From the NCBI GenBank assembly GCA_040954595.2, contig CM082579.2, positions 10,095,625 through 10,159,624 of the forward strand: a stretch of DNA of 64,000 nt. Direction: 5' to 3'. The position numbers and the translations under genes are program-made. The notes beneath the pieces are model-generated. The model was not told where the DNA came from. It saw only the letters and a program-made list of their open reading frames with translations, and did no database searches. Shown here piece by piece: positions 7,527 to 49,900 of this stretch (positions within the stretch are counted from its first letter, which is position 1; each line of letters opens with the position of its first letter). Source of the stretch: Balanoglossus misakiensis. Lineage: Eukaryota > Animalia > Hemichordata.

Positions 7527-10500
7527 TCACAGTCTTGTAAAATAATCATCCTCGTTTAGATTCATCACAAAGCCGTTGTTCACTCCATTCGTCAGAGGGT
7601 GCGTGTCTTGGCGCTGGTGTTTTGTCTTGCTTCCCGCCAGGCTGTGCGCGTATCCGCACAACGCGCCCACGACGATCATGAAGAGCACCAGGAGGGCTAT
7701 AATCACCCCCACCAACGCTTGCACCAGCGTTTCCATCTGCTGCTCCGTCATTTCCAAACCGAACCCCTCCCCGAACAACGGACTCTCCGAGCTCTCAACG
7801 CTGTCCGTGGCGACTTCTTCTAGCAGAGGCACGTAGCGGTTCCAGAACGAGGCTCCTTGGTGGCGCAGGTTGGACCGAACACCTGGGCAAATGTCTAGTT
7901 CCAGGTACATCTGTTCATCAAAGGTGAACTCGGGCCACTCCATCGAGACATCCGCGTGTCCTACGTTAGGATTCCTGTAAAATATCATACATTTTTGTCA
8001 GTCTTTGGAAATATTTACATCTACAATATTTTTTCCGCGTGAAGTTCTCTTCTGGTTTGCTATACTATACTGCGTATAGGCTACATTGTTTGTGTTTGAA
8101 CTGCACATTTTTGCATAGGATTCTCCTACATCCTCATCTATGCACATCATTCAGATTTTTTGTTATGAAGCCTTTTAACAATCAAGTTGCCCGGCACCCA
8201 TGACGACAAAATTTACCTATGACTTGTGACAGGTTTAAATAGGTGGTAAAATTATATGATGCCTGAATAGGAACGATAATTGTAATTATTCAAGTGATAT
8301 CTCGTCCAATAATTTTGGCTGGTCAACATAGCATATTAGTAGTCGAAAAATTCGCAAACTACATATTTGATAGTAATGATTAAAGACGTACCCTGCTTTG
8401 ATGAAATTCGATATGTACTTCATCATGACCTGTGATAGACGTCGTTCCTGGTCGTTGAAAGAAGTCATGGTTTGATGGTTTGACATTTGGAATGGCTCCC
8501 CTAAAATAAGTTTGACGTCATCGCCTCGTGAGGCACCCACCCATTCAGGGAACGTGGAAAAAGACGGCCTCTGTGTGTAGTGATACAGGTACACACTCCC
8601 GCCGACTGACGTGTGCATATTTGCTGTCGCGACGGTGGGGGCGTACATCATGAAATCGTCAGTCATGTCCAATAGTCGCTTGGTCAGTTCGCGCGCATCA
8701 TTCTCGTCGGCTGCAGTTAAATACTCCCGCTCGATTGCTGCTGCCACCAAGTCCGCGTTTCCGAACAGATACGATTCCAGGATGTTGTCTATGGCGTCGA
8801 GGAAATCTTGCCGAGAGCCGACTTCGTGACTGAGCACTGTCTTGGCCATCTCGCTATTTGTGGCGCCGAGGATCATGTCCATTGGCTCATAGCCTCCGGT
8901 GAGCATCATCTCATACGGGTCGTGGCTCAACACATCGCCATCTACAACAACCATGGGTGTAAAGGCGTGATGAGAGCTCATCGCAACGTCTCTGATTCTG
9001 TCAACGCTGAGCTCACGTAGACATCGCACCAACCGATTGTTGTCGCTACCCTCGCAATGCACTTGACGAATAAACCGCTCGGCACCGTGGCGGGCGCTAT
9101 CTTTGCGATAGCGCATGTCGGTCATTGGGCTCAGGGAAGATCCACTCAGACAGACAACGCGGCGGAAGAGATCCTTAGAAAGACGTGACGTCATGAGGTA
9201 CTGTACTGCCCATGCGCCCGAGCTGAACCCAGCCAAGGTCACTTTATCGGGATTGCCACCGAAGTTTCCGATGTCGCCCCTCACCCACTCAAGAACGTGT
9301 AGGATGTCGCGCAGCCCGTAGTTGCCCGACAACGTGTCATTCTCTGTGGACAGAAAACCGAGTACTCCGAGGCGATAATTGAACGTGACAACAACCACGT
9401 CGCCGAATGCGGCGAGGGCGTCACCGGAGAGATGCGACGCGTCGCCCATGACGAGGTCGGACCCCTCCACGATGACCATCACCGGCAGCCAATCATCACT
9501 CGAACGCTGCTGTCCCTGGGGCGTATATACATTGAGATAGAGGCAGTCTTCGCTGGAGTTTGGCCTGCCGTGCTGCAGACAGGCGGGTTTGTGTCGAGTG
9601 GCGTTCAGCTGCCCCGTCCACGGCTCGGGGGATTCCGGACTCCGGAAGCGCATCGATCCCAGCGGCGGTTTTGCATACGGGATACCGAGAAACACGTCCA
9701 CGCTCCTACCACCTGTTGCTTGGTGTGATTGGACGGTGAAGCCGGCTACATCCCCGTATGTTGTTTCCACTCTCGGCACCGTTTCCATAACGACGGGGTC
9801 GCCTCGCGTTAGAAACGGTGGTGCCATCGCGTCGGGACACTCGTTTTCGGGGGCGCTGATGCTTGGGATGAAAGTAGTCCAGAACGCCACTGTGTCTACA
9901 CCTGGTTTCGATCTTGTAGACAAATCATCGTTATGTATTTGAAGATATTGTTGACTCTCTGTGGTAAACTTCGGCCAGTATATTAAACCTTCGCTGCTGT
10001 TCCCGTTGTTTGGATCCCTGTGGCGAAACAAAACGATTTCTTAACATTATCACAATATTTATGTATAAGTTACAAATGAATCCTATGTATGTATGTAAAA
10101 AAGATTAGCTGGAGAATTGGTAATCACTTGAAGACTTGAACGGCGTATTGAGTTGCATATATCGGTTTATACCACCGACACACATTGCAAGCTTGGCAAA
10201 CCTTACAGAAAAGTCTAGAACAGCTTAGATCTTGGTCAGGTCAAATAGCCTTTGTCGTTATGCTATAACAATATACGTTCATCGAACCGTATAGATACAT
10301 ATATTGTCTTTTTCCAAATAACCTCTCCGACGAAGACACCTTGCGAAGAATTCTAAATTAGCCAACAAACTGATTTGGAAGACTGTTGTATTTTTGTTCT
10401 GAAAAGACTTATCTTAATTAATAATTTTGTAGGTTTTTCACCAATAACGGATTAACGTGAAATAGTATGATTATAACGAGCGGAATCCACTCACGACAAT

Positions 10501-12249
10501 TGAATTTATGATACATGCTATAAAATTTGCGTAATGCAGGTATTTCAGTCAATAAACTGGCCTAATTTGCTCTGAACGTTCGATTAATAACAATAATCCA
10601 TCATAATCCAGAATTGCTGTCTCAAAATGTGCAATACCTTTACCACAGAGATAAACCACTTTGGGGTAATTCTGGTATCATTGACATGCTGACAACTAAG
10701 TGTTGTTGTTTGGAGTACAAACAGCCGTGTGTTACCGTTGTTTGGATTGCAATGGTCACTGCGATGGGGTGCGTGTAAATAGTGGAAGGTGCCACACTTA
10801 CCCCGTCTTGGCAAAATTGCTCCAATACGCGAACATGCTTCGGCTTGAAGTGTTCACCTGCTGCCAAAGATTTGCATATTCGTCACCGCGTCCACCTGTC
10901 CGCGTGAGTTGATCGTGCGGCGAGGCGGCAAAGTTGTACAGATAGGTCGATTTATTTCCGTCGTCTTGGTTTGCGCAGCGATGGGCCAGAGTTAACGCTG
11001 GAACTGTAACCTGTCTGTCGCTGATCATTTTGGCAGCTTCTGCCAGACGAGCCGCTGCGTCATCGACATTTTGCCAGTTCGTGTATTGGTATCTGAGTGC
11101 ATTGGCTACCGTGTGTTGACTTGTCGCATAGGAGTCGGCTACCAGTTGTACGATTGTTTCGAAGTTGTCGGAGGACAATCCCGCCGACATGTTCAAATTA
11201 TGAGACTGCGCAGCAATAAGCGGTAGTAGAGACGTACTCACGTCCTCCGTGCCTATAATCGCGTTATATTTCTGCAAGTTTCCGTGCTCCATCATTGAAC
11301 GAAGCGTGCTCGGTACAACATCTCTATCTAGCGTCATGATATACGGCGGAGAGAATATATCTGACGGTTGAACTTGACCTTGGGCTTCAATCAACGCATC
11401 GACCGACACCGTTCTCAAGCACCCCAGCATGCGTTCGTTGTCGGGAGGCGCGTCCGTCGGCGACGAGCAATTCACAAGCGCGGCGAGCGCCCGGGCGTTG
11501 TCGGTCGCTTGGCGGGGTTCTGTGGGCTCCCAGAAAACGGCGCTTTGAACAATCGCCCGGTGAAATAACCCGGTACTGGCGGGTGAAAACAAATGGTAAA
11601 GAATGCTTAATCCCCCTGTCGACTCACCACTGAGCGTGACGCGGTTTGGGTCTCCGTTGAAGCGCCCGATGTTATCCCGGATCCAGTGCAGGGCTAGCTG
11701 CTGATCGCGGAGACCGTTATTCCCCGTTGCGAGTCCGTCCCCGGTCGCGAGGAAACCCAGCGCGCCCAGTCTGTAATTGATCGTTACCACGATCACCTGT
11801 CCAGTCACTGCCAGCGGAGTCCCGTCGTACGCTCCGCTTTGGCCGTGCAGCAACAGGCCTCCATGTATCCATACGATCACGGCCAATTTATTGCTCGGGG
11901 TTGCCGTCTCGGGCACGTATATATTCAGCATGAGGCAATCCTCATCGATGAGAGTATTCGGCAGCGATTCCCGACTAATCTCGGACATGTCTTGCGGACA
12001 CCACGGACCGAATTCCGTTGCATTGTAGCTGCTCTGCGGATTTGCGTAAGGCCTGGGCGGGTTAAATCTCAGCTGACCGACAGGGGCTTCGGCATAACGA
12101 ATTCCCCTGTAAACGTCCACAGAAACTCCTTGGAATATTGCCGTACTGCCTCGCACCAAACCAATGGTGGTGTTGACGAGAGGATCGGCTCCGAGTGCGA
12201 CTGCCAGAGTCGCTGTAAAGAGGGCTGCCGAAACTAACACCACCGACAT
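7527..12249 (-). CDS. Type I membrane protein with two tandem type-B carboxylesterase/cholinesterase-like domains, probably catalytically inactive (~1173 aa)
   Basis: Coding exons are 12249-10802, 10017-8392 and 7974-7527. Both introns are GT-AG and phase 2, and the total is 3522 nt in frame. Signal peptide MSVVLVSAALFTATLAVALG. Family motifs occur twice: GIRYA/GIPYA, EDCLMLNIY/EDCLYLNVY, NYRLG..GFL, GESTGG/GFSSGA, WSNFAKTG-DPN/ISNFIKAG-NPN. TM segment LVGVIIALLVLFMIVVGALCGY; C-terminus DDYFTRL. Confidence 0.92.
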
Positions 12250-22900: not shown

Positions 22901-25900
22901 GTATAATGTCCACTACCTTGGGTAGCAGGTAATTTTCTTTGATACACAGAGAATTCTCAGCTCCTTTGTTGTCTTGGCTCCAACTCGCCTGTACCTGTAG
23001 CACATTCTCACTCCCATGCATGGGTCTCTCTGTAACGTATCAGACAACAGCATAGTAGTAGAAAAGAGAATTAGTCTAGTCATATTTACAGCATCATTGA
23101 AAATGCAGCTTTCCATCAAAAGAGCCGCCAGCACAGAGACATTAACAACAGTGTGTATTGCACATAAAATTGCCATAACATAAATGGAATTATGAAAACA
23201 TAATGACTAGGATTATGTCGATCCGATATTCACTGCATTTTAATTCATTTATTTATTCGATCATCTAACAGGCAATTGCTCAAATAATATGGGTAAGAAA
23301 TTTTGTCAGCCATGCTCTGTTTGCAGGGGCTGTTCAGCTTATTTCACCATTACAGTTTATTAGACATCTTAAATGTTATACATTTCATATAAAGTACAAA
23401 AAATAACTTAATTCCCTACCCTATTATTAGTGTTAAAACATTTAATGTTGACCACATGACATAGCTTTTCAGCCTATCACTATCACTTTGCGAAGTCATG
23501 CAACAGGTGCATAAGGGTTGCAGCCTATGAAATTACACCTCATAAAATGTGTAGGTCACCCCAGAAATGAAGTTGACGACAGCTGCGACATTAACAGCAC
23601 TTACCAACATCTCCTTTGCAGAGGACTTCAAATAATGCGTAGTTCTTAGATGAATCCAGGTTATTGTTGGAAATGGCTTTGTGAAGGAACTGATCAGCTG
23701 TTGCATCAGGTGATACCTGAAAGGCCATGCATGAAAGAGTATGGATTGAATCTGATTGGTTCAGATGTGTCAGGCGCCGCTTGAAAGGAAATGCAAGGGA
23801 CAGTGTTGTCAAATTTGATGTTATTTCGTTATTCTTTTCCGTGCAACAACTATACTACACATTCTTGTTCTACTTGCTAACACTTGTATACATGCAAAAT
23901 ATTAGCAAGTCAACCAACTACATGTATGTATACATGTAAAGTAAAATGTTTCAGTTGACAAGACTAAAACTCAATAGCCAACAAAGCTAGTTATCTGTAC
24001 ATACATAGGCTGTGATGACAAGCTGAATAAGTGTTGTGAATACACAGAACTACAACAAATGTTAAAAATATTATCAACAGTTGCCATTACTGTCACATTA
24101 GGATTTTAGTACGCCTATATACAAATACAACCACCAGAAAAAAGTATATGTACTCACCCTGACATTTAGTTCTGTACCTTCAAACATGGCCCCGATCAGA
24201 AAGCCAGTAGTTTGCTTTTGATGCTGTTGACAAAAGAAACACAAAGGAGAAAACATCAATAAAATGTTTAAGTTACTATTTATTAATAAATGAAATATTT
24301 CCTAAAACATTTGCAAAATATTTGATTCTCAACTAATATAAGAGAAGTTGCTAAGTTAAACCCAGGGATGTTGGCTGGAGTGAAAGAGTCTTCGTACGAC
24401 GAAATGTTATTTTATTTCTGTAACAGAAAGACAACGTTATCTCACCCCTGTTAAAATTTCAAATTTCTTCCACCACTCAGCTATATTCTGTTCCACTTGT
24501 TTTTGATATGCTGCATCTTCTTCACTGATATCAAACAACCAATTGTAGTATGTAATGATATCTCCTATGACAGCAATCTCCGAATTCGCATCCCCAAAGC
24601 CACTTGCATTGGCAGTCTGAGACATAATATGACATGAAATGAAATTAAAACTATGGTCAATTAGCACCACTGGTGTGTACCAAACTCTCCAAGCTACACA
24701 TGTTAGGCAGGTCCCAAGTCTTTCATGGTTCATTAAAGGGCCACTATCTGTGACGCGATACTTCTGGCTATTTTGTCAATATTTTTGTTTTGTGTATCAA
24801 TCACATTTTCAAGTTCTCCTCCCTTTTGTATAGACAGGTTTGATTACACAATTTACACTAAATAATGTGAACTTACAGTGGCACTAGACATTAGCGTTGG
24901 TCCCCACACAGCTGCCAGATTTCCTATCACCATTTTATTCTCACTGCTGTTTTCAGATACTCTGAAAAAAAGTGTTCCAAAACGTATTGCGACTTTCTGT
25001 GTATTTTCAATGCACAACTCGGCAAGGTCTGTCATGTCAATCTACAGCTTGGTGTAAATCTTGATGTTTTCAATGAACATGCAAGTCCCACACACTACAA
25101 AATGGCAAAGGCAGAGCAAAAAATAACTCATAAAATACTCACTGGTGAACACATTAGATCAAGGTACGTGTAATTGAAAATAAGAAGTTAGACAAGGGTA
25201 AAGACTCTATCTACCTTATTAAATGTCCAATGAGTTTCTTCAAAGTTTCCCTGTTGATTGGAGGCAGTTGATCCAAATAGTACTTGTACCACCTTAGCTT
25301 ACCATTGTGATCATCATATCCTGAACATTAACAAAAAATCTACATATTGGTATATCTCCCAATCAAACATCACTTTGATTGCGTTATATCTATGCAATAA
25401 AATCTGACCAATCTCTAAAAGCTAAGAACGCAAATGCTGACCAAACTCTGTAAACTTGTCGGCGTGCAACGAGTTTATTTCCTCAAGTACTTTTTCATCT
25501 CAGGTCTCATCTAACCCATAGCCAATTTACGTGAAAATTCTCTTTGACACAATAAAATTTTTCCATTTAACATGTACAGTCCTGATAGACAGAAATCTGG
25601 CTAAACTGCTCCAGACTTTCTATAGATATTGTTCGACAGGGAGCAAGCTAAAGCCTTCCAATATCCCATTCATTTAAAAATCAACTGACCAGCTATTTCA
25701 ATCCACTTGGGATACAGCGCTTTGGTCAACAATGGATCCGGCAAATTCCTGAAAAATCTCTTCAATGCATTGGCTACTTCATGGACTGGGTACTCATCCA
25801 AGTTCACTGCTCTGGCATTTGTGCTGAAGTCCTCCAGTAACTTTTTCACTTTGGAGTCTACTCCAGCCCGTCTGTAAATGCCTTCTTCACTGATGCCTGC

Positions 25901-28900
25901 AATGGGAACAATTTATTATTACTTACAACATTACCACCTATCAGTTTTATTAAGCAACATCTTTGTATGTACATAGAAGCCAATGGTATAACATGTTACT
26001 AAGTACACTCATTGTAAGTAACACTTAAAGTGAAAGACAAAACAAAGAAGCATTGCCACATGAAAAATTAGTTGCTGACCGAAAATTAAAAACATTTTTC
26101 ATTCTCTTTTCTTTCTTTCTTTAAAAAAATTGTAACAATTTCATTGGGTTCTTGTGAACTTATTTTGAAGACTTTCCAAATGACTTTACAATATATACAT
26201 GTCTTTTCAAACACTGACTTTGACATGAACTACCATTCGAAATTAGGGAGAACGCTTTGTGGGCTAATACACTTGGCCAGTATAGAATTAAAGTGCTGAA
26301 GTGCTTGAAGCACAAATATTCTGGGTACATGTGGTGGGTACATCATGAATTAGTGTGTAGTGCTCATGGAAATGATCAAGGATGATTAAAATCCTGGGGA
26401 AAATATGCTGTGATTCATCTATCAGTGCTTGTACACTTGCTGCAATCTCATATTCCTCCAAGCTCAGCTAAAATGAAAAACTCACCATGTACGGCGATGT
26501 AATCAATGCACATTGAAACTAGAATTGGTACATTCTCTGCTGTTAACTGCTGTTCATGTAGATTTCTACCACTTTTCTGTAGAATGAAAAGTTAAAAACT
26601 TATTAGAAACTGCGAGGGTTGGACATTGAATGGTGAAAAGTCTATTACAGCAATTCTGTATCCTGGTTCTGTCAATGTTTCTTTTATGCCAATGTTTTAT
26701 TTCACGGAATTGTCTTTGTGCGTATTACTTACCATTGACGCAGCTTTGATGGCAGCAAACCATTCCTCATTCTCCTGTTTTGTGTCACTATGGAAATACA
26801 ATGTCCTGTGAATACAGAAAGAGTAATAAGGGCATGTCGGGTTTTAAACACAGAGTCTGATATGAGCTAGTTTTCATTTATTTCTTGCCTGCCACACACA
26901 TGACGAGGTGCATAAAATAAAAGCATTTGCAAAATGCTAGAAGTTTACAGTTGTCTTGCAGAAGAATTTGATGAAACTTTGTGAGTAGTGGGTACTAAAG
27001 TGAACTCAGGAAACTGAGAAAATTGTCTGGTTTGCAGGAGTTTGTTTTTTGCAGGTTTCTCAAGTGTAGGTCTGGAAAGGTGTTGAGAATAGACAGGCTT
27101 TTCTTGTGGAAGAAATGCAGAGTATGATGAGTGGATCAACTCCATGAAACAGACTTTGATCAGCCGATAAAACTCACCTGCCCGGCATTACAACAGCACT
27201 GACATTACTTGCTCCCTCTGCTGTCATTTCACTTGTGACCTCAGTTTGGGCAGCTGCAATGTGGTGACACGAAAAAAAGGAATAATTAGTCTTTATCTTA
27301 AGAGTGAGTGAGTGAGTGAGTGAGTGAGTGAGTGAGTGAGTGAGTGAGTGAGTGAAAGGATGCATGGATGTGAGTGTGTGTAACTTATATGTTCACACAT
27401 ATGTGTGTACATAACACGTAACTACATGTATGTCTGTAATATGTATGCATGTATGTATGTATGTATGTATGTATGTATGTATGTATGTATGTATGTATGA
27501 ACATGTATGTATGTATGTATGTATGTATGTATGTATGTATGTATGTATGTATGTATGTATGTATGTATGTATGTATGTACATGTATGTATGTATGTATGT
27601 ACATGTATGTATGTATGTACATGTATGTATGTATGTATGTATGTATGTATGTATGTATGTATGTATTATGTATGTATGTATGTATGTACATGTATGTATG
27701 TACATGTATGTATGTATGTATGTATGTATGTATGTATGTATGTACATGTATGTATGTATGTATGTATGTATGTATGTATGTATGTATGTATTATGTATGT
27801 ATGTATGTATGTACATGTATGTATGTACATGTATGTATGTATGTATGTATGTATGTATGTATGTATGTATGTATGTATGTATGTATGTATGTATGTATGT
27901 ATGTATGTACATGTATGTATGTATGTATGTATGTATGTATGTATGTATGTATGTATTATGTATGTATGTATGTATGTACATGTATGTATGTATGTATGTA
28001 TGTATGTATGTATGAATGTATGTATGTATGTATGTATGTATGTATGTATGTATGTATGTATGTATGTATGTATGTATGTATGTATGTGCCTATGCTTGTA
28101 CTCACACATGTATATACATTACATATATACATACATACATGCATACACACACGCAAGCATACATATATATGTACTTATTATCTGAAACAAATACTCACAT
28201 AGGTTTATAAGTTTCCTGAGATCCAGGGTTTCCATAGCCATAAGTACAGCAGAGAAATACATGAACCATTTTCCTTTCAGGATGAACCAGGTTTTCTGCC
28301 AATGCTGAAAACAAAACAATGGTGGAATTTGTAGTTTGAGATTTTGGTAAACTAGATGACCTTAATATGAGATTTATGTAAATCAGATCATCTTAACTTT
28401 TTAGTCTGATTGCAATTTTTCTACACACTTATCTTTCAATGAAAACATGTGAACATCAAATTTGAAATTTAAAACAAAATATTAAAACCTGATGTATGCT
28501 ATTGAAATTGAACACAAAAAATTGCTCATATCATTGGAATCAAACAAAATTCAACCAAACATTGCTACATTACTTACACCAGCAGCACTTTCTTTCATGT
28601 ACAGAGTTCCAGCTCTGTCAAAATTCTGTGAAAAATAAAACAACATTCTGTATTCAGTAAAACTTTAAAAGTACAGAGACTGTTTTAATATAAATAATGG
28701 ACACTTTCACTTCATGTTTGATACAATACACCGTTTATGTTATTCTACATGTGGATATATAGTGAATCAACGTTCGACCACACACAAATTCCACCCCATT
28801 ACATTTCTGAAAACTAACCTCAAGATCGTCCCACACACAAGCTGGTGCTATACTCTGTAATAAGGCAAAAAATTTGCTCCATGAAATATGCTGAACATCA

Positions 28901-37046: not shown

Positions 37047-40000
37047 CAAACAAACATACACAGCAGTCAGACAGAAACATAATGGAAACAGAGAGAGGAA
37101 GACACACAGACAAACAGACAGACAGCCTGACTAACAAACAAACAAACAAACACACAGCAGACAGACACACAAGACAGAAAGACCAAACTGCATGACCAGA
37201 ACCCGATTCTGACTGATGTTCTCATTGAGGTCTCCGGCTGATGAGGACAAGCCTGTCTTACCTGCACACTGTTTACAAAACACAACACAGAGATTGATTG
37301 ATGTCCAGTCTGGATCTGTGAAAAACAAGAGCAGCGAATCAACACAGGGTCAAAACAACCTTTCATGGATACTAATGCTTGATGATGTTTAACAAAGAAA
37401 TGGAAAAGAAGTCTATCTACACCATATAAAAAGTTCCATGCATGACAATATCCAAAATATATCCACTGAGTGACTACCAAAGGTACAGAATTCCTGCATC
37501 TTTTTCAAAATAATGCACACTATAGAGTACAATAATCTTTCCCTGAAATTGATAATCATAGTCAAGAGGTCAACATTTAATACTGTCAACTCATACTTAC
37601 TTTCAGCCCCACAGTCAGCACAGAATCTATTGCTTGGATTCTGCCGCACATACAGCAATGTCTACAAAATAAATCATCCATAATATGGAAGAACATTAGC
37701 ATTCAAGACAAAACACTCAGCACATAACATAATGATTGTCAATAGTGACCCGTGACCATATCGGTTGAATAGTATTTTATCTTTTTTTGTTCCAATATTC
37801 CTATGTCTATAATTTTTCATTCAATAAAATAAATCAATTACAATCAATTACAATGACAATTTAGCTCAATGAGATTCAAAGCGTATACAAAGAATAATTC
37901 AAGAATTATAGTTACTTTTGGATCTCCTAAGCCCTCTGCAATAGCTTCATTCATCGCCCGAGCCCAACTTTTCATTTCGTCATTGCTTTCAAATGTCAGC
38001 CTGTATAATAAGAGAAAATTTTCTCGATAAATTGGCATGTAGTAGTGATGGAAATGCAGTGATACAAATGGGTCATGACCTACTTAATATGTGAGCACGC
38101 GATCACGGTATAACTTACTAGTAATATAACACAAACTAAAATACCATCCATGAAATTCTATAGTACACATCATGTTAATCAAAATGAATGTCATCAATTT
38201 TTGCCACTCTTGCAAAACTACAAAGACTGCATTCCATTTTTCCGCACAATGAATGAACGTCATCAAACTCAGCTAAAAAAATTGAACTTGGATATGGAGA
38301 GCATGCAATGCATTGTGGAACTGCAAATACATATCATCACAAACTTCACTTCATTAATCAGTGTTTTTATTCTAGAAATCATGGTGCCTCAATACTCATA
38401 CAGAACAAAAAGGTTGTGTGTGAAAAATTAGAAACAGGGAGAGGATACTTACGTCTGTTGCTGGTATGCTGTCACCAGTGTAAGTTTTTTGTTCTGCGGA
38501 TCTTTTACTGTTGCTATCTTCATTTCTATTTCACTGATTGGAGAAGCACCTTTATAATCCTGTCAGAAAATGAAACAAATGTGCATATGTATATTTCAGC
38601 GAGACTTTTGTTAATTAAAGGTAATACAGTCACCTCGAATTTACATATGCCCATATATTGCTGAAATGGCGTATTTGAGCGTTCTAAAGAACATATGGTG
38701 GAGCTCTTTTTTTCATGTGTACACCCACTGAAAATCTGTGATTGGCCAGATCTCAATTTGCCATGGCAACTATAGCTAATTTTCCATTGGTGACCTCACT
38801 GTCATAGTTCATAATAAATCACAGGAATTGAGGTGACTGATTTTCTGTGGTTCCCACATACACCACTCCCATGTAATATATCATGACATTGTCTAACTAT
38901 ACTAACCTCTTGAGTTACATAGTAGCAAAGCACAGCTCCCTTTATTGCCATGTATCTACAAGTAAAAATATAACAATTAAAAACATTTCCAAAAATCACC
39001 CAGTATATCAGAAAAACAACATGATAATCATACCAGTCTCATTTGCCATGATTTCATTCTGATATGCAGTCATATTTGAAAATCAGTATTTGGTCTTCTG
39101 TCTCCATAAATCATATTTTCATGAACAAGATTTTCATTAGATGTGTTGCCATGACAACAGCAAAGACCAGTAGTTCTGAATCTGAGTGATAAATATTTAA
39201 ATATGTACATAGAAACAGTTGCCAATACCTTTTCTCACTGTCAATCTTCACAGGACCCTGTTTGGAAGCAAGAGATTTTCACTTCAGATATAACAAAATG
39301 TATGATTTGCATCAAAAAGTTAACTTCAAGAACATCAAAGATATCGGAAAAGATAGAGTAAGATGGATAATAAACACTTCATGCTTTCAGATCTCTATTA
39401 TTACTAAACATATAAACTGTAATTTGTAAAGGCATACATGTTGATGTTTTACAGATTTATTTTATTCTCAAGATTCATGACATAACCAAATCTGAAGCAA
39501 TATAGTAGCACAAAGGATAATAATATACTTACCTCCTTGTCAGGATTAAACATGTCTCCTCCCTCTGGAAAACCGCCCTCTGGTGGCTGTGAAAACAAAA
39601 TGCACAATCTTATTAATATCGTACTTCATTATGAAATATATCAAAATTCAACAACACCCACAATTTACAATGACAGCTTACAATCAATGTTATATCCTGG
39701 CAAATGTTCAAGCCAGTTTTGGTTGGGGGAGGTTAAAGAAAATCTTTGGAAGCAATGTGTAGAGTTTTCTTTTATTCTGAAACTTTCTGTTGAATCAGTA
39801 GTTCAGTTTTCATGTACAACTTTAACTGTACATAAATGTAGCTGTAACATTTGTACAAACTGTAACAATGAAACTGAGCATTTTGGAAAGTTGGTGCATT
39901 GATGGCTTTTGTGATATTCAATTTTGTGTAGCAGTCACAGGTATGGGGGAATAAAGATGCAAATTAAGCTTGACTGAGAAATGCAACTGACAAACAATTA

Positions 40001-43000: not shown

Positions 43001-46000
43001 ATAACTTCTCAACTTCTTAAATTATGTGTAAGAAAAACTAGGGCCTTCGATAAAAATGTTTTTATGCGATCAGAAAATGCTGAATTTCAAATATGATAAG
43101 AAATACAATGCACTCTAACCAAGCATTTGCAAAGTTAGGCAGAACTATTCTTGTCTCCTAGCTTTATTCCCTGCATAAAGTAACAATACAAGGTTTTTGT
43201 GTCTGTGTTAATTTTATCAAAGCTGCCAGATAGAACACAAAATTCAGTTTCCTTGTGTGCAAACCAGTCATGACATTTGTGTTTACTTTGACACTCCAGT
43301 CAATAATCGGTGCAATGCATTGTATTTCCTTGATCAATGCCCCAGTGCCATACACCAACATTTTAGGTGTCTCGCCACTAAAAATGATACATTAAATAGG
43401 TACATGAACCATAAATGTACTTACACTTGGAGTATACACACTTGTTGTTGACATCCTTTTCATTTCATTTATCTGAAGAAAAAAATGTCCAAAACACTTA
43501 TCAATATATCCAAAGTGCAGCAGGTTTTAAAATCTTCACCTGGCCTACACTCAGCACTGTTTCAATCACATTTATTTATGTCTTCAAATCAGTATTATTT
43601 CCTGCACATGGCCCCCAACAAAATAACTCTTGGATTTGTTGTACTTACAACATCGTCAATGACAATCTCTATCGCCAAGTATCTTGCATCAAGCATGCAT
43701 GTACCAGTACACATGTTCACGATATTTTACATGCTATTTTGGCATTCTTCTGAGGCAAACATAAAATCTTCACTGACTTACGACAGGTGACCATACCAGG
43801 AAGTGACTGAGCTAGGGGTGTGTGTGTGTGTGTGTGTTTGTGCACAACAAATATACAGGTCACATGGTCACCAGTTCATGAGTCATTCACATGACATGTA
43901 CCTGCAAACATGGCAGTAAGATACAATGTACATTGTACACTGCCCTCTTGGAACATTTGATGTAGCACTACATGTTACTTGTTAAAAGCCACATTTCTCA
44001 TTGATGACATAATGGAAACTTTACTTAAAGGGGAAATACGGTCCAGCTGATTTCTACATACATTGGTAGTTTTGAGGTCACTCTTTCAGAAAAAAAACAT
44101 ATTCGTCATGTATAAGTCGCCAGATTAATATACCCAGTGTGAATCAATCACTGTAAATGATTTATGACAGGAGCGTTGAATTTTGATCATTAGTTGACTT
44201 ACCCGGACATTTGGTTTTTGTAATTCATCATAAACCATCGTCTCATCGCTGGTGTCACTGACATCGCTGTCGTATCCTCTCATAGAGTCACCAGCTTCCT
44301 CGCTCTCATCTTTCAGTGGCTCTAAGGATGACCAGTTGGAACAAGTGGAATCCCTAGGGCTTTCTGGCGTCAGATGCGGTAGCACTGCCGGCGGTCGAGC
44401 GGGCAAGTCCGGCACGGTCGGAGGCAGCACTGGTTTGGGTTGAGCCCTGACGGGCAAGGGCGGCACTTGGGGGGCCGGTCGGTGAGGCGGGCGCGCGTGT
44501 GCGTCCGGCTCTGTCAACTCGGAGTCCACTCTGGGCGGAGGCGGGGGTGCCATGCTGTCGAGGGTGTCCTCGACGCTCGGCCGGCCGAAAGTTCTAAAGC
44601 CGGGGGTCCTAACCCTGTGCGGCGCATCCTCCGTTCCGGTAGGTGGCGGCGGGGGCGGTGGGAAGTCCGGCGGCGGGCTGTGGAAGTGACCTCTCGGTGG
44701 TAAAGTGGGTCGATCATCCCCGTCGATTAAATTTGTCGTGTGGTAGGCTTCCGTGGGCGAGCCCGGTAAGATGACAGAGGGTTGCACTCTGCCGCGCGGT
44801 GAGATCTCGGGTGACAGATCAATCAGGTTAGAGACTCTTTTTCGTGCGTCAGCAAGTGCATTACTTCTTTGCCGCGGCCCATTAACCAAGACATCGTAAG
44901 CCATTTCATCGTTCCCTATATTTTTATCCGGTTTTTCCTTAATATTCTTTATTAGCTCATCATAGATGCCACCAGTCGCTTGCGTGCCAGAATACGGATC
45001 ACCAACATCGTCAATTTCTGGTAAACGCCTTGACTGTACGGGATCGAATGATGAGGACCTGTCGCCTGTGCGCCGCGGACCATCAGTGTCAGTACTGCCT
45101 TCTGCTGGTGGCTTTGCTGTTCCTGCGTCGGGTAATCTCAACTGGGGCTGCGGAGGTAAAAGGTTGGTTAGCGGGATACCTTCCATGCCTGGAATAGACC
45201 TCCTCACAGAATCTCTGTCTCTCAACGGCAGATGCATCGGCGGTCTGAGACTAATGTTCTGGGGCTGGGATAGAGAACCTACCGTCATATCGACATAGTC
45301 ATCGGAACTGCTGTTTGCGCTGTCATCTTCTCCGTCTCCTTCTTTCTGTACAGGTGTTGGGTGATCTGCAGCTTGTGGTGGGGGTAGCTCCGCGGGCATT
45401 GCAGGTGCGGAAGACAAGTTACTCGACCGTACAGGCGGGGGAGGTGGCGCTCTCGTTGGCATTCGACTGCCTGGGCTGGGGGGTGGTGGGAAATCCGGCT
45501 CTGCCACGTGTATACTCGACCTGGGAGCTGCACGCGGAGGTGGAGGGGCCGGAGCCTCTTTCCTCGGCCGCACAACACCAACGCTTTCGTTTGTTTTCGG
45601 TTCAGACGCCCGAGGGGGGAGACTGGGCTCAGGTACACCGGAAGACGCTGACCCTTGGCCAAAAGAGTCCTTGTCGCTTCCAGTGCTTTGCTGCTGGTGA
45701 TCTGACACAGGAACAGGCATTGGCGGCCTGGCGGAGATTGAGTTATCCTGTGGCTCGTTTGTTCGCGCGTCACCACTGGCGTCTCTAGGGATAGGTGGCG
45801 GCGGTCGGTCGCCCAGTCTTGGCAATGGAGGGGCGGGTGTTTGGGGTGGTAATGGTAATGGCGGCCTATCGTCTTGTCTTGGAACAGGCAGCGGTGAATG
45901 TGAAACGACTGTGTCTTCGCTGTGGTGTGGTGGCGGTGGTGGTGGAGGCAAGTCGTCGTGTTTCGGGGCGGGCGACTGGGTGCGAGAGCTCATCACAGTC

Positions 46001-46980
46001 TTCGGACTGCCGCGATGCGGTAATGGAGGCGTGCTGTCTTCTCTGGGAATGGGTGCAGGCAGGCGAACACCGAGCGGCGGAGCGACCGCGCCGACGGCGA
46101 CGATGGCGGATGACACTGGAGGCACGTCTTCGTGTCTGGGGACGGGCCGAGGGGGAAGGGAATCAGGCAGCTCCACGCCGATGCTGTCTCGCTCACCGGT
46201 TGAGAACCGGGAGTCTGTTGCCGACGAGTTCCTCTGCGGATCTCCGTGGTTAATGCGTCGCCTGGGCGGTTTCTTTGGTTTCGGTTTGCCGGCGGCGGCG
46301 GTGGGTCTCGGGGGAAGCACCGGCTTCTCGCCGTTCTCCACCGGTGGCGGTGGAGGTGGTGGTGGTAGTTTGTCCGGGACAGGTTTGCTTTGTGAGTCGA
46401 CAGTTCTGTCCGGTTTGCTCTCATCCTTGGCGACATCGAGATATTCCGGATCGTCGAACTTTGCGGCGTTCTGCGCGTCTGCTCGCTTGGGAGGCGGGGG
46501 CTGCGGCGGCGGGGCTGCTACAGTCCCCGGGGCAGTTTCAAAATACTCCCCCTCGTCAAACTCCGGATTTCTGGCGTCTCGGCCCGGCTGTTTCGGAGGC
46601 GGTTCAGGAGGAGGCGCAGACGGCAAGTCGTGGGCCAGCGAGACACCCTCACTCCGACTCCCTCCGTCAAGGACGCTGACCAGCGACTTCATCTTTCGTG
46701 GCAAATCCGGGGGAAGCTGGGGAGCCCTGTGTACGGCAGCAGGTCTCGGAATTTCAGCCGTCACATCAACTGGTGAGGAACGCTGTGGTGGCTGGGCAAC
46801 TTTCGGCAACCGCTGCAAGATCCGCGTCCGATGGCCCCTCTTGGTGATTCCTATTGTCAGCAGCAATTCTTCTGTAAGACGCTGCAGGTCTGCCAGCGAT
46901 GTAAATCCATTTTCATGTAAAAGTTCAGAGTATTGCCCCAATTGTATACTGTCCAGCCACTCCAACACAGACTCTTCCAT
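16972..46980 (-). CDS. ARAP: ARAP-family (centaurin-delta) Arf-GAP/Rho-GAP with SAM, ankyrin, RA and five PH domains; ~45 coding exons, ~2089 aa
   Basis: Phase-consistent GT-AG exon chain: 46980-44203, 43472-43425, 42759-42716, 42349-42271, 42172-42110, 40527-40455, 40059-40007, 39586-39533, 39257-39229, 38955-38907, 38559-38453, 38000-37916, 37661-37601, 37315-37262, 36774-36695, 36530-36439, 35908-35809, 33681-33610, 31981-31954, 31378-31338, 31146-31122, 30739-30572, 30153-30092, 29426-29344, 29170-29068, 28854-28819, 28625-28578, 28304-28199, 27253-27178, 26805-26733, 26576-26486, 25896-25690, 25320-25215, 24961-24877, 24616-24446, 24223-24158, 23716-23605, 23029-22917, 22527-22405, 22013-21928, 21786-21748, 21366-21303, 21119-21030, 18179-18132, 17070-16972. 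Motifs: SAM (VLEWLDSIQLGQY), PH (KEGYLFKQGG..WRKRW), ArfGAP CADC-x16-CKQC-x4-R, RhoGAP EGIYRRAG and NLAAVWGPTL, RA (YALFEV..ERPMH). The last two exons are the least certain. Confidence 0.92.
20600..20692. repeat. ~21-bp tandem repeat (~4.5 units)
   Basis: Repeated ttttgtgtgcacatcatcact-type units. Confidence 0.85.
24446..26576 (-). CDS. ARAP: ARAP RhoGAP domain exons (5 exons in this span)
   Basis: VPILVSMCIDYIAVHGISEEGIYRRAG (arginine finger present), VANALKRFFRNLPDPLL, LPPINRETLKKLIGHL, NKMVIGNLAAVWGPTL. Confidence 0.9.
27302..27355. repeat. (GAGT)n microsatellite
   Basis: Read directly from the sequence. Confidence 0.95.
27440..28087. repeat. Long (TATG)n microsatellite with TACATG and TATTATG interruptions
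   Basis: About 650 bp of TATG units inside an ARAP intron. It is the source of the spurious MYVC/HTYI ORFs. Confidence 0.97.
29765..29917. mobile_element. Kolobok-like TTAA MITE, copy 2 (internally deleted)
   Basis: Same TIRs and body as 15755-15948, missing ~40 bp after gagatcta. Confidence 0.8.
32387..33038. mobile_element. Cluster of long inverted-repeat (hairpin) elements, probably nested non-autonomous DNA elements
   Basis: Hairpins at 32387-32462, 32467-32595 and 32919-33038. A 13-bp inverted repeat ttattatacatct (32598-32610) / agatgtataataa (32906-32918) encloses a CpG-rich core. Confidence 0.75.
36439..37661 (-). CDS. ARAP: ARAP ArfGAP zinc-finger exons (4 exons in this span)
   Basis: Spliced sequence [47 protein letters not shown] has an intact CX2CX16CX2CX4R motif. 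Confidence 0.9.
37001..37180. repeat. (GACA)n / (AAAC)n simple-repeat region
   Basis: Read directly from the sequence. Confidence 0.85.
38615..38795. mobile_element. Kolobok-like TTAA MITE, copy 3 (reverse orientation, one end truncated)
   Basis: Reverse complement of the 15755-15948 body, starting ttaaaggtaatacagtcacctc. Confidence 0.8.
44203..46980 (-). CDS. ARAP: ARAP first coding exon: SAM domain plus an ~860-aa proline-rich disordered region
   Basis: The ORF track 44125-46980 reads through the CGG|GTAAGT donor at 44202. The acceptor is at 47017, 36 nt upstream of the ATG. Confidence 0.92.
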
Positions 46981-49900
46981 CTTTGATGGTTTTTTCCCCT
47001 CTTATAGGTTTCCTCTCTGGAATGAGAAACCAGTCATTAGCGATGACAGAGTGCCTGTGGGACAAGGCATATTTTGAGATCATGTCATAAATCTTCAAGG
47101 AATAGGTTGGGACCATCAACATGAAAAAATGGACTTTGAGAATTGGTGATGAAATGGTGATAAATATATATTGGGGATGTTTTCGCAGAAGGTGTGTTTT
47201 TATTGACCTTCAATGTAAAGTCTGGTCCGGGCATGCTGGTTGAAACAGTTGCAATGTAGGCTGGCATAGAACTGGTGTGGACTTTTCCATCGTTTTAAAA
47301 GTGGAAGACAGGAACTTATAATGGTGAAATACGAATTAAAATGACTCTATCAGTATGTGCAAGGGATATGCATAAAATGTATTGTGTATTTAATATCTGC
47401 CATGGGTGCAAAAAATAAACTCCAGAATCTGACATACCAGTATACTGTGTTTCACTGATCCTATCCTGGATAACGCCTAAGGTGAAGAAAGTCGCATTAC
47501 ATGGTGAATATCCGGGTCATACACTTCATTGCTTGTAACGTGACCTGTAAAAAATCAACAAAACGGTACCACGGCCAAGTTAGCATTATGAGTTTTAACT
47601 TTCTGAGGTCTAAGAGTAAATTTGTGAATAGAGAAATAACTACATGTATTATTAACCTCAACAAATTTCTCAGGCCAAAGGTCATAAGCATTATTAAAGT
47701 GTTGACTGTTAGTGTCTTGCAGTGTATGCACAGTAAGTTTACAGTAATATAGAAAATCAATATGTATACCTGAAAATGATAGAACAGCAAAGTGAAGCAG
47801 CTACCACTGTTACTCGGCAAAACAATTATGTAGGAATATTAAACTTAGCTGACAAAATATTCCAGTATGGCAATGAAGCACAGTACAGAATTTGTGTGGA
47901 AATTTTTGAACTTCAGATGTACCCTGTTACATTCCCATCTTTTTGAACTAAAACAATGTTACATATAACTGACTGAAACTTTGATACACTTTTCTACATG
48001 CAGAGTGAACTTTGGTCTCTCCACCCATAAACAAAGCAATGAGGTTGTGACTAGTCTTTTATTTTTCACTACTGTATTTCCTGGTTACTCATAAAGGACA
48101 AAAATCTGACAAGCTGTTTTTAACTGCACTAAAATGGCCTACAAAATTGGCACATCAATGGATTGAATTCTTATAAAGACTTAAGTATAATGCCTGTCCA
48201 TCTGGTCTGATCTGATTCATGATCTGAACTGACCAGTTCTGTCTGTTTGTCTGTCTGTCTGTCTGTGTCTGTCTGTCTGTCTCTCTCTATCTCTCTCTCT
48301 CGTGAATTAGTCTAGACATGTACATGTACACACACTACATGTACATGTACATGTATTGTAGTTTGTATGCATAATAATATTTGTATGCATATATCTACAT
48401 CTACAATGTACATACATGTAAAAAACAGTTTAGTTTTATATTCTTCTTTTAATAGAATAATACATGACTCTCCCTGTAAAGTTATCATTTATACTGCAAC
48501 AAGGAAGGTTTCCTGATATCTGTCAAAACTAAAATGTGAATAGCACAACCAGTCACAGTGTGACATAGAACTGTCAGCATAAGCATTTAGGAAAATCTGA
48601 TTTGAGATTATCCTTTTGAGGGTAGGGTACTACCCAGATGTTTTGCATGGTTTGTCATATTCCATACATGTACATGTAGCTGTGGATATGTAAACATTTT
48701 GAGAAAACACTGTTGCAATATTGTCATTTTCATATAATATACACAAAAGGTGCCAAAAACAAACTACTATGACATAAAGAAAACACTATGTCACTGTGCT
48801 TGGGTTTTTGGTAAAGCTGTTCAGATGTTTTCACCAAAGGAAAAATATTGCATAACATGAAGGGTGAACGAAAAGTGCTGACTCAGCATTCCCACAATAT
48901 TTTTGTCCCCAAATTCAAACATCGGATGTGAATACGGTACCCTGTTTTCTCTTTATTCTTGACATTTAAAATATATAAAGAAAATGAAAAGATCTTCAAT
49001 TTACAGGAGACCCCACCTTTAATGCTCTAGCTTGTGACTGCGTTCACATGGCAACAAGACCAAACTGAGCAGTCCATGCAGGAGTGGATGAAACTCTGAT
49101 TTATTTTTGAGGGGAATCTACAATACGTAAAATATGCCAATTTCATGGACTGTTCAGTCTGCACGGTCACCACTTTTGGTATAACATTGTACAGTACACA
49201 TTCTGTTCAAATTGAGAAGTAGAATGTTGAAAAAAAAATCATCAACTTCCTCAATAAAACTATTCATAATTGTGGGCGTTAGCCATATTGAAAAGCTGAC
49301 TGTCAATGACCACTTCAGAGATGTTTGGTACATGTATCTGGATTGTCACAACCACATGGATCAGGGTAGTCACTAGTGCATATTGTTATCACAAAAGTCA
49401 GCCTCGTGTCCAGATAAAAGTGAAACTGTGGAATCAAGTTGTCATGTTCCATTTTTATATCTAGTGTGTGGAACAGCCATTTTGTAAAACTTAAACTGAT
49501 CTGTCCAGACTCCTTACATGTATTTCACAATAATGCACAGTAATATTTTGCAAGGAAAAAAATCTTGGCCACAGGATCTACATGTACATTGTAATTAACT
49601 TGTGTTTGTGATATTTTACAAAAGGTGAAGTGAAAGTTTAAATGTAATAAAATTGACATGGGGTAAATTACATGTATGCCTGGATGTCTCTTCTTTACAT
49701 TCCATTCACCAACTTCTCTAGTAAACTGACACAAATTCTTCTCCCTACCATACTCAGCATACATATACCAGTTATAAAGTTATCTAGTTGTGAATAGTTT
49801 TGACACACCCTCAGGATCTCATTAAAGACTCTACAGTGAAAATTTCATACAAGGGATTGACACAGTTGGAACCAATTTTACTATTTTAGATGATATTGGT

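What the first reader, a model, noticed from the sequence alone, without database searches (positions are those of the whole stretch)
7527..12249. Double-domain cholinesterase-like membrane protein in which both domains replace the catalytic His with Arg: candidate new adhesion/receptor class
Seen in sequence: signal peptide, two complete carboxylesterase-family domains, one TM helix and a ~40-aa tail. Both domains keep the nucleophile elbow (GESTGG, GFSSGA). The catalytic-His motif, normally G-x-x-H-G-D-[DE], reads TGGRGDEY in domain 1 (10882-10890) and GASRGDDV in domain 2 (8520-8528). Domain 1 also appears to lack the triad Glu (GTEDVST instead of GxxxxEG), and domain 2 has lost the HGG oxyanion hole (IVEGSDL). 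Established: known cholinesterase-like adhesion molecules (neuroligin, gliotactin, neurotactin, glutactin) have one esterase domain and typically lose the Ser. Inference: this is an independently derived pseudo-esterase with a doubled ectodomain that acts in adhesion or ligand binding, or has non-canonical Ser/Arg chemistry.
Basis: partly seen in the sequence, partly recalled or inferred. Interest (0 to 1): 0.85.

Follow-up and report, generated by a model that had tools for sequence, protein, structure and literature searches.

The report
Acorn-worm double pseudo-esterase membrane protein
This gene encodes a predicted cell-surface protein with two esterase-like domains that both lack the catalytic histidine; it belongs to a wider family in acorn worms and echinoderms whose outer domain usually keeps its catalytic residues, so the two arginines are likely separate decay events rather than new chemistry, and the protein likely works as a non-enzymatic, scaffold-anchored surface protein.

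Summary
An intact three-exon gene (minus strand, 12249-7527) gives 1173 aa: signal peptide, two COesterase domains, one TM helix and a ~41-aa tail. Arg454 and Arg980 stand at the catalytic-His position. Orthologues with the same layout occur in Ptychodera, Glandiceps, Saccoglossus and echinoderms, and similar layouts in Styela, sharks and Lingula. Domain 1 has His in 4 of 4 hemichordate orthologues, with a full triad in 3 of 4. Domain 2 lacks the triad in 4 of 4, with Gln or His at the His site. The two domains fall in separate old clades, and a hemichordate-only doubling is rejected (AU p=0.0017). The two Arg residues are therefore probably separate one-base changes (His to Arg, Gln to Arg), not a conserved Ser/Arg motif. 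The wider pattern is more interesting: a family built as enzyme domain(s), then a membrane-proximal pseudo-enzyme, a shared juxtamembrane motif and often a PDZ-type tail, with fully non-catalytic members in acorn worms and sea urchins. My searches found no paper describing it. Function is inferred, not shown. New variant of a known kind.

The parts
10802..12249 (-). Exon 1: start codon, signal peptide and most of esterase domain 1
   Evidence: tblastn block ends at the junction
12187..12249 (-). Predicted signal peptide (aa 1-21)
   Evidence: hydropathy; first helix of the model; coordinates
9858..12180 (-). Domain 1 (aa 24-536, spans intron 1): outer carboxylesterase-type domain; His present in 4 of 4 hemichordate orthologues, triad lost here
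11620..11622 (-). Ser210, nucleophile position of domain 1 (kept)
11236..11238 (-). Ser338 at the catalytic-acid column of domain 1 (Glu/Asp in orthologues)
10915..10917 (-). His445, not conserved; first residue of the only segment modelled below pLDDT 50 (445-452)
10888..10890 (-). Arg454 (CGC) at the catalytic-His column of domain 1, flanked by in-frame deletions of about 4 and 10 residues private to this gene
10018..10801 (-). Intron 1, GT..AG, phase 2
8392..10017 (-). Exon 2: end of domain 1, linker and most of domain 2 in one open frame
7824..9773 (-). Domain 2 (aa 565-1075, spans intron 2): membrane-proximal pseudo-esterase, triad absent in 4 of 4 hemichordate orthologues
9222..9224 (-). 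Ser748 (AGC) at the nucleophile column of domain 2; Gly in most relatives, probably secondary
8526..8528 (-). Arg980 (CGA) at the His column of domain 2; Gln in Ptychodera and Glandiceps
7975..8391 (-). Intron 2, GT..AG, phase 2, same position within the domain as intron 1
7527..7974 (-). Exon 3: end of domain 2, stalk, TM helix, tail, stop
7731..7781 (-). Juxtamembrane motif shared with hemichordate, echinoderm and tunicate relatives, not with neuroligins
7653..7724 (-). Transmembrane helix (about aa 1109-1132)
   Evidence: hydropathy 3.2
7530..7652 (-). Cytoplasmic tail of about 41 aa; last 16 residues identical to Ptychodera; ends in a class I PDZ-type motif (FTRL, 7541-7530)

Best explanation
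The gene encodes a predicted single-pass membrane protein with two esterase-like domains that both lack the catalytic triad, and it likely works as a non-enzymatic cell-surface binding or adhesion protein that is likely held at the membrane by a PDZ scaffold. Shown by sequence and trees: it is the orthologue of a two-domain gene of acorn worms and echinoderms in which the outer domain normally keeps Ser-acid-His and the membrane-proximal domain does not. Inferred: the ancestral protein was a membrane-anchored ecto-esterase or lipase whose inner dead domain serves as folding aid and stalk, by analogy with the thyroglobulin ChEL domain. Inferred: in the lineage shared with Ptychodera the outer domain lost catalysis, by different lesions in the two species. 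Inferred: the two Arg residues are separate single-base changes at relaxed sites (CAC to CGC; CAA to CGA). Inferred and weakest: the -TRL end binds a NHERF-type scaffold at an apical epithelial surface.
For: His at the domain 1 site in 4 of 4 hemichordate orthologues, full triad in 3 of 4; Ptychodera has Tyr for Ser and no HGG. Last domain lacks the triad in 28 of 32 multi-domain TM proteins against 20 of 210 multi-domain non-TM proteins; first domain intact in 25 of 32; all domains dead in 7 of 32 (rows are related and query-biased). Hemichordate domain 1 clade 100/100 and domain 2 clade 100/98; domain 2 with echinoderm and Lingula last domains 98/92, and 99/94 after long branches were dropped. 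Hemichordate-only doubling rejected, p-AU 0.00165. Domain 2 is better conserved against Ptychodera than domain 1 (336 of 509 versus 273 of 510). The terminal 16 identical residues tie for the longest identical run in the protein, which points to selection on non-catalytic parts. Two private deletions flank Arg454. In the model (mean pLDDT 92), only 445-452 falls below 50 and a helix starts at 456, the canonical register. PDZ class I pattern in 16 of 28 family-type proteins, including 5 of 5 hemichordate orthologues counting this one, against 44 of 333 non-TM proteins. -TRL is the NHERF1-binding end of Npt2a (PMC13465602, passages).
Against: No expression, localisation or activity data. Orthologue codons were not available, so the mutation paths are inferred from residues. 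Most echinoderm members lack the PDZ pattern (2 of 13). Deep tree nodes are weak: the domain 1 group across phyla is 88/88 and 81/94; the shark last domain joins at 96/79 and 81/58; the Styela last domain groups elsewhere on a long branch. The stalk profile scores sharks only weakly (E 0.07-0.5) and Lingula not at all. Adhesion or ligand binding is an analogy, not a result.
Confidence: 0.65

Rival explanations
1. Domain 1 is simply decaying baggage, or this is a redundant copy or a null-like allele; any function rests on domain 2 and the tail, with no new binding role for domain 1.
For: Lesions cluster around the domain 1 active site, two deletions are private to this gene, and the C-half of domain 1 is the least conserved folded part (129 of 293 against Ptychodera). 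Ptychodera has an intact single-domain TM relative on the same contig as the orthologue (P0262), which could cover the enzyme role.
Against: The 1173-codon frame and splice sites are intact, the N-half of domain 1 is 144 of 217 identical, the fold is modelled with confidence, and all-dead two-domain versions persist in three sea-urchin genera.
Confidence: 0.2
2. Domain 1 is still an esterase through a rewired triad, Ser210-His445-Asp336, placed by the loop deletion as in short-loop alpha/beta hydrolases (spacing recalled, not tested).
For: Ser210 and HGG are kept; His445 lies five residues after the strand that ends at 440; an Asp stands three residues after Gly333.
Against: His445 is absent from 4 of 4 orthologues; that Asp is inherited and also present in orthologues with a normal triad; 445-452 is the least confident part of the model.
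Confidence: 0.05
3. One reading: the paired Arg residues are a selected motif giving Ser/Arg chemistry or RGD-type adhesion.
For: Arg at this column is rare (4 of 668) and both domains keep a Ser. The protein has 4 RGD tripeptides; only 3 of 411 proteins had three or more.
Against: Neither Arg is conserved in the closest orthologue (His and Gln). Domain 2 lacks the oxyanion glycines and domain 1 lacks the acid. Two RGDs arise automatically from HGD and sit at the active-site position, which is buried in this fold (established knowledge, not measured here).
Confidence: 0.04
4. Two adjacent genes, or a sequence error, mimic a two-domain Arg/Arg protein.
For: Fused annotations of tandem esterase genes may be common among the long hits. 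Single-base errors cannot be excluded.
Against: One exon carries the end of domain 1, the linker and domain 2 in a single frame, with no second hydrophobic leader. Four orthologues of 1173-1186 aa are colinear over the full length. Errors would not explain the in-frame deletions or the lost acid.
Confidence: 0.03

Closest known systems
Uncharacterised two-domain hemichordate proteins (Ptychodera XP_070552581.1, Glandiceps LOC144438702 and LOC144438580, Saccoglossus LOC100375895)
   Same: Length, domain order, dead domain 2, TM and PDZ-type end; 54% and 66% identity to the Ptychodera domains
   Different: Domain 1 keeps His in all four and a full triad in three; none has Arg at either site
Neuroligins and other cholinesterase-like adhesion molecules (gliotactin, neurotactin, glutactin)
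   Same: [quoted passage not shown]
   Different: One domain, with Gly at the nucleophile and Glu and His kept; much longer tail; stalk motif not shared; sister grouping with domain 2 only 90/76 and 88/86
Thyroglobulin ChEL domain
   Same: Dead cholinesterase-like domain at the C-terminal end of a multi-domain ectoprotein, implicated in maturation and trafficking (PMC12992692, introduction; chaperone and dimerisation papers seen only as titles in its reference list)
   Different: Secreted, with Tg repeats upstream; scores lower against domain 2 (202 bits); not in my trees
Multi-domain carboxylesterases of fish and amphioxus (ces2b type)
   Same: Tandem COesterase domains in one chain
   Different: Domains mostly keep the triad, no TM, ER-retention-type ends; separate clade
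Multidomain carboxylesterase/cholinesterase proteins of invertebrate deuterostomes (Johnson and Moore 2012, PMID 22210164)
   Same: Cited for duplication and rearrangement of ChEL-domain genes in these animals. I recall that it mentions multi-carboxylesterase-domain and non-enzymatic proteins, so the Saccoglossus orthologue may be listed there
   Different: Paper not held and not read; whether it describes the active-plus-dead membrane family is unknown

Membership tests
Type-B carboxylesterase/cholinesterase fold (PF00135) | Profile match above the curated cut-off in each domain | tested here: met
   362 and 427 bits against a cut-off of 27
Type-B carboxylesterase/cholinesterase fold (PF00135) | Cholinesterase-type fold | tested here: met
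   Domain 1 model (aa 1-482) pLDDT 92, TM-score about 0.84 to AChE; domain 2 not modelled
Active serine carboxylesterase | Ser-Glu/Asp-His triad | tested here: not met
   Domain 1 S/S/R, domain 2 S/E/R
Active serine carboxylesterase | Oxyanion-hole glycines | tested here: inconclusive
   HGGL in domain 1, EGSD in domain 2
Active serine carboxylesterase | Measured hydrolysis | not testable with these tools
   needs an assay
Neuroligin | Type I TM protein with C-terminal PDZ-binding motif | tested here: met
   TM and FTRL end; pattern match only
Neuroligin | Single ChE-like domain inside the neuroligin clade | tested here: not met
   Two domains; both outside the fish plus amphioxus neuroligin clade (100/99)
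Neuroligin | Neurexin-binding surface | tested here: inconclusive
   The stretch I recall as the binding site is poorly conserved in the alignment, but one search did not confirm the residue list; binding itself is untested
Cholinesterase-like adhesion molecules (functional class) | Non-catalytic ChE ectodomain on a membrane protein | tested here: met
Cholinesterase-like adhesion molecules (functional class) | Demonstrated adhesion or ligand binding | not testable with these tools
   needs cell assays
Ambulacrarian esterase plus pseudo-esterase membrane family (defined here) | Each domain groups with the matching domain of orthologues; shared juxtamembrane motif | tested here: met
   (domain 2 with echinoderms 98/92 and 99/94; domain 1 across phyla weaker)
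Thyroglobulin | Tg repeats upstream of the ChEL domain | tested here: not met
   Pfam finds no Tg repeats in the three exon products

The most novel reading that the evidence does not exclude
This is a member of an undescribed, possibly bilaterian-old family of membrane proteins in which active esterase or lipase domains ride on a pseudo-esterase that is the sister lineage of neuroligins. The family has repeatedly lost all catalysis (acorn worms, sea urchins), so this gene is a living example of an enzyme turning into a two-domain adhesion or receptor protein.
Probability: 0.2. Interest if true: 0.7.

Novelty: new variant of a known kind. Interest (0 to 1): 0.42.

Why it matters
Known cholinesterase-like adhesion proteins have one dead domain, and how they arose from enzymes is hard to trace. 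This family offers matched orthologues that differ in state: active plus dead (Saccoglossus, Glandiceps, sea stars) and dead plus dead (this gene, Ptychodera, sea urchins). That makes the enzyme-to-non-enzyme transition testable side by side, and it points to an overlooked candidate surface esterase in sharks and tunicates. The double Arg itself matters little.

Tried and rejected
No whole genome is held for this window, so paralogues elsewhere in the genome were not searched. tblastn with five queries found no other esterase copy inside the window. Sequencing runs: no RNA holder was listed. dN/dS was not possible without orthologue DNA. The first fold, on 8 sequences, was low-confidence (pLDDT 52) and was replaced by an 84-sequence fold. 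The tools return no coordinates, so residue distances were not measured. A homodimer job on domain 2 of the Ptychodera orthologue gave no answer (score 0.10, mark 0.32). The ESM Atlas search of stalk, TM and tail gave only hits under 0.9, the best being a neuroligin-named cluster at 0.86; a lead only. A PDB search with the shark protein ranked AChE and bile-salt lipase first and did not isolate its last domain. Literature: full-text searches returned 0 papers; one returned 1, 55 returned 4 and 63 returned 3. PMID 22210164 is not held. PMC3084293 did not contain the neuroligin residue numbers sought. Most subscription journals are outside the library, so absence from print is not established. 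Supplements of PMC12992692 were not read. Earlier scan findings: none by sequence or words. Rejected: RNA editing restoring His (it would need a G-to-A change; own knowledge); filing the gene as a neuroligin (the FastTree grouping was open in the quick tree and unstarred). Trees used 102, 52 and 34 chosen domains out of 911 domain hits, and searches dropped the catalytic-motif columns. No thyroglobulin, gliotactin or neurotactin was knowingly in the trees.
Full report
Observation. The region holds one minus-strand gene of three coding exons (12249-10802, 10017-8392, 7974-7527). Both introns are GT..AG and phase 2, and they lie at the same position in each domain. The joined frame gives 1173 aa with only the terminal stop. 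Pfam places a COesterase domain in exon 1 and in exon 2. In a profile alignment domain 1 reads Ser/Ser/Arg and domain 2 Ser/Glu/Arg at the three triad columns, and domain 2 has EGSD for HGGG. The register of Arg980 is confirmed by alignment to neuroligin. That of Arg454 is confirmed by alignment to orthologues and by a confident model in which a helix begins at 456 and only 445-452 falls below pLDDT 50 (TM-score about 0.84 to AChE). Arg at this column is rare: 4 of 668 near-complete domains, two of them in this protein.

One gene or two. Exon 2 carries the end of domain 1, the linker and most of domain 2 in one frame, with no second hydrophobic leader. Four hemichordate proteins of 1173-1186 aa are colinear with the model, and the tblastn blocks of the closest one break at the predicted junctions. 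A single transcript is therefore very likely, but not shown. The closest relative is from Ptychodera flava, so the window is probably from an acorn worm (inference).

Orthologues. Domain 1 has His in 4 of 4 hemichordate orthologues, and a full triad in the two Glandiceps proteins and in Saccoglossus. Ptychodera keeps His but has Tyr for the nucleophile and no HGG. Domain 2 lacks the triad in 4 of 4, with Gln, Gln, Gln and His at the His site and Ser, Lys, Lys and Gly at the nucleophile. The window's codons are CGC and CGA, each one transition from a His codon and a Gln codon respectively. The two Arg residues thus probably have different origins (inference; orthologue codons not seen). Arg454 is flanked by two in-frame deletions found in no orthologue. 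Gly is the nucleophile-column residue in 21 of 28 membrane-proximal dead domains, so Ser748 is probably secondary.

The wider family. Of 411 proteins (hits plus this one), 242 had two or more near-complete domains and 32 of these had a C-terminal TM helix with a tail. The last domain lacked the triad in 28 of 32, against 20 of 210 without TM. The first domain was intact in 25 of 32, and all domains were dead in 7 of 32: this protein, Ptychodera, four sea-urchin proteins and one from Lineus. These rows are related and were found with family queries, so the contrast is descriptive. The 28 include one Glandiceps protein and the Lineus protein, whose domains group elsewhere. With the catalytic-motif columns removed, the hemichordate domain 1 and domain 2 sets each form a clade (100/100, 100/98), and domain 2 groups with the last domains of echinoderms and Lingula (98/92). 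Without the long branches the ambulacrarian group stays at 99/94. Holding all hemichordate domains together is rejected (p-AU 0.00165; I named the group after seeing earlier trees). The shark last domain joins with weak support (96/79, 81/58), neuroligins next (90/76, 88/86), and the Styela last domain groups elsewhere. A profile of the 30 residues before the TM helix, trained on 13 ambulacrarian proteins, finds untrained echinoderm members and 4 of 4 Styela proteins (E 2e-7 to 9e-6). It finds sharks weakly and neuroligins not at all (E 5 or more). The family is thus well supported for Ambulacraria, plausible for deuterostomes and uncertain beyond. The middle domain of the shark proteins groups with bile-salt-activated lipase, which hints at a lipase or esterase role for active members.

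Signs of selection without catalysis. Against Ptychodera, domain 2 is 336 of 509 identical and domain 1 is 273 of 510. The last 16 residues are identical, tying the longest identical run in the protein. The chain ends in FTRL, a class I PDZ-type pattern. It is seen in 16 of 28 family-type proteins, including all five hemichordate orthologues, the sharks, Styela and Lingula, but only 2 of 13 echinoderm ones; the background is 44 of 333 non-TM proteins. -TRL is the motif by which Npt2a binds NHERF1 for apical expression (PMC13465602, passages). Neuroligins also end in a PDZ-binding motif (PMC10084454, passages), so the motif does not by itself choose between epithelium and synapse.

How it most likely works. 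Shown: both triads are broken, the architecture is old, and the non-catalytic parts are conserved. Inferred: the ancestral protein was a membrane-anchored esterase standing on a pseudo-esterase that helps folding and spaces the enzyme from the membrane, as the ChEL domain aids thyroglobulin maturation (PMC12992692, abstract, introduction, part of the results and passages read). Inferred: this lineage lost the enzyme activity but kept the protein as a surface binding or adhesion molecule tied to a PDZ scaffold (0.65). Rivals: domain 1 is decaying baggage (0.2); a rewired Ser210-His445-Asp336 triad (0.05); selected Ser/Arg chemistry or RGD adhesion (0.04); two genes or an error (0.03).

Comparison and novelty. 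It works like a cholinesterase-like adhesion molecule in being a dead-esterase membrane protein with a PDZ-type end, but it fails neuroligin membership on domain number and clade. Multi-domain esterases are common in the databases. Rearranged ChEL genes in invertebrate deuterostomes are cited to Johnson and Moore 2012, which I could not read. Six of nine literature searches returned nothing; the other three listed eight papers, none on this family by title or abstract start. The library lacks most subscription journals. AChE residue numbers and the neurexin-binding stretch are recalled, not from a call. Verdict: observation confirmed, interpretation partly supported, new variant of a known kind, interest 0.42.

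Noticed in passing
window 44125-47001, 37134-37349 and 25673-25912 (minus strand): SAM, weak ArfGAP and RhoGAP matches in order suggest an ARAP-type gene upstream on the same strand.
   Followed up: partly
window 55351-57390 (plus strand): 679-aa ORF with C2H2 zinc fingers.
   Followed up: partly
window about 27385-28200: Long imperfect tetranucleotide microsatellite that gives spurious ORFs on both strands.
   Followed up: no
P0012 and P0013 (Glandiceps, same contig): The two paralogues are identical over 212 of 212 residues in the first half of domain 2 but only 167 of 291 in the second half: gene conversion or an assembly or annotation artefact.
   Followed up: no
P0019, P0020, P0023 (sharks): Three-domain TM proteins with a bile-salt-lipase-like middle domain, a dead last domain and a TKF/TKL end; no bony-vertebrate counterpart appeared among the 120 listed of 290 hits.
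   Followed up: partly
P0119, P0238, P0241, P0367 (sea urchins): A separate fully non-catalytic branch of the family with a short tail ending KPV; one member has the dead last domain duplicated.
   Followed up: partly
window 12249-7527, protein positions 454, 554, 729, 980: Four RGD tripeptides; only 3 of 411 proteins had three or more. Two result from the Arg changes and one is shared with Ptychodera and Glandiceps.
   Followed up: partly
P0262, P0267, P0286, P0324, P0336: Single-domain TM esterases with intact triads carry the same or a similar juxtamembrane motif (strong for P0262, P0286, P0336; weak for P0267, P0324); P0262 lies on the same Ptychodera contig as the orthologue.
   Followed up: partly
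window 6977 (minus strand): AATAAA about 550 bases downstream of the stop codon, a candidate polyadenylation signal.
   Followed up: no
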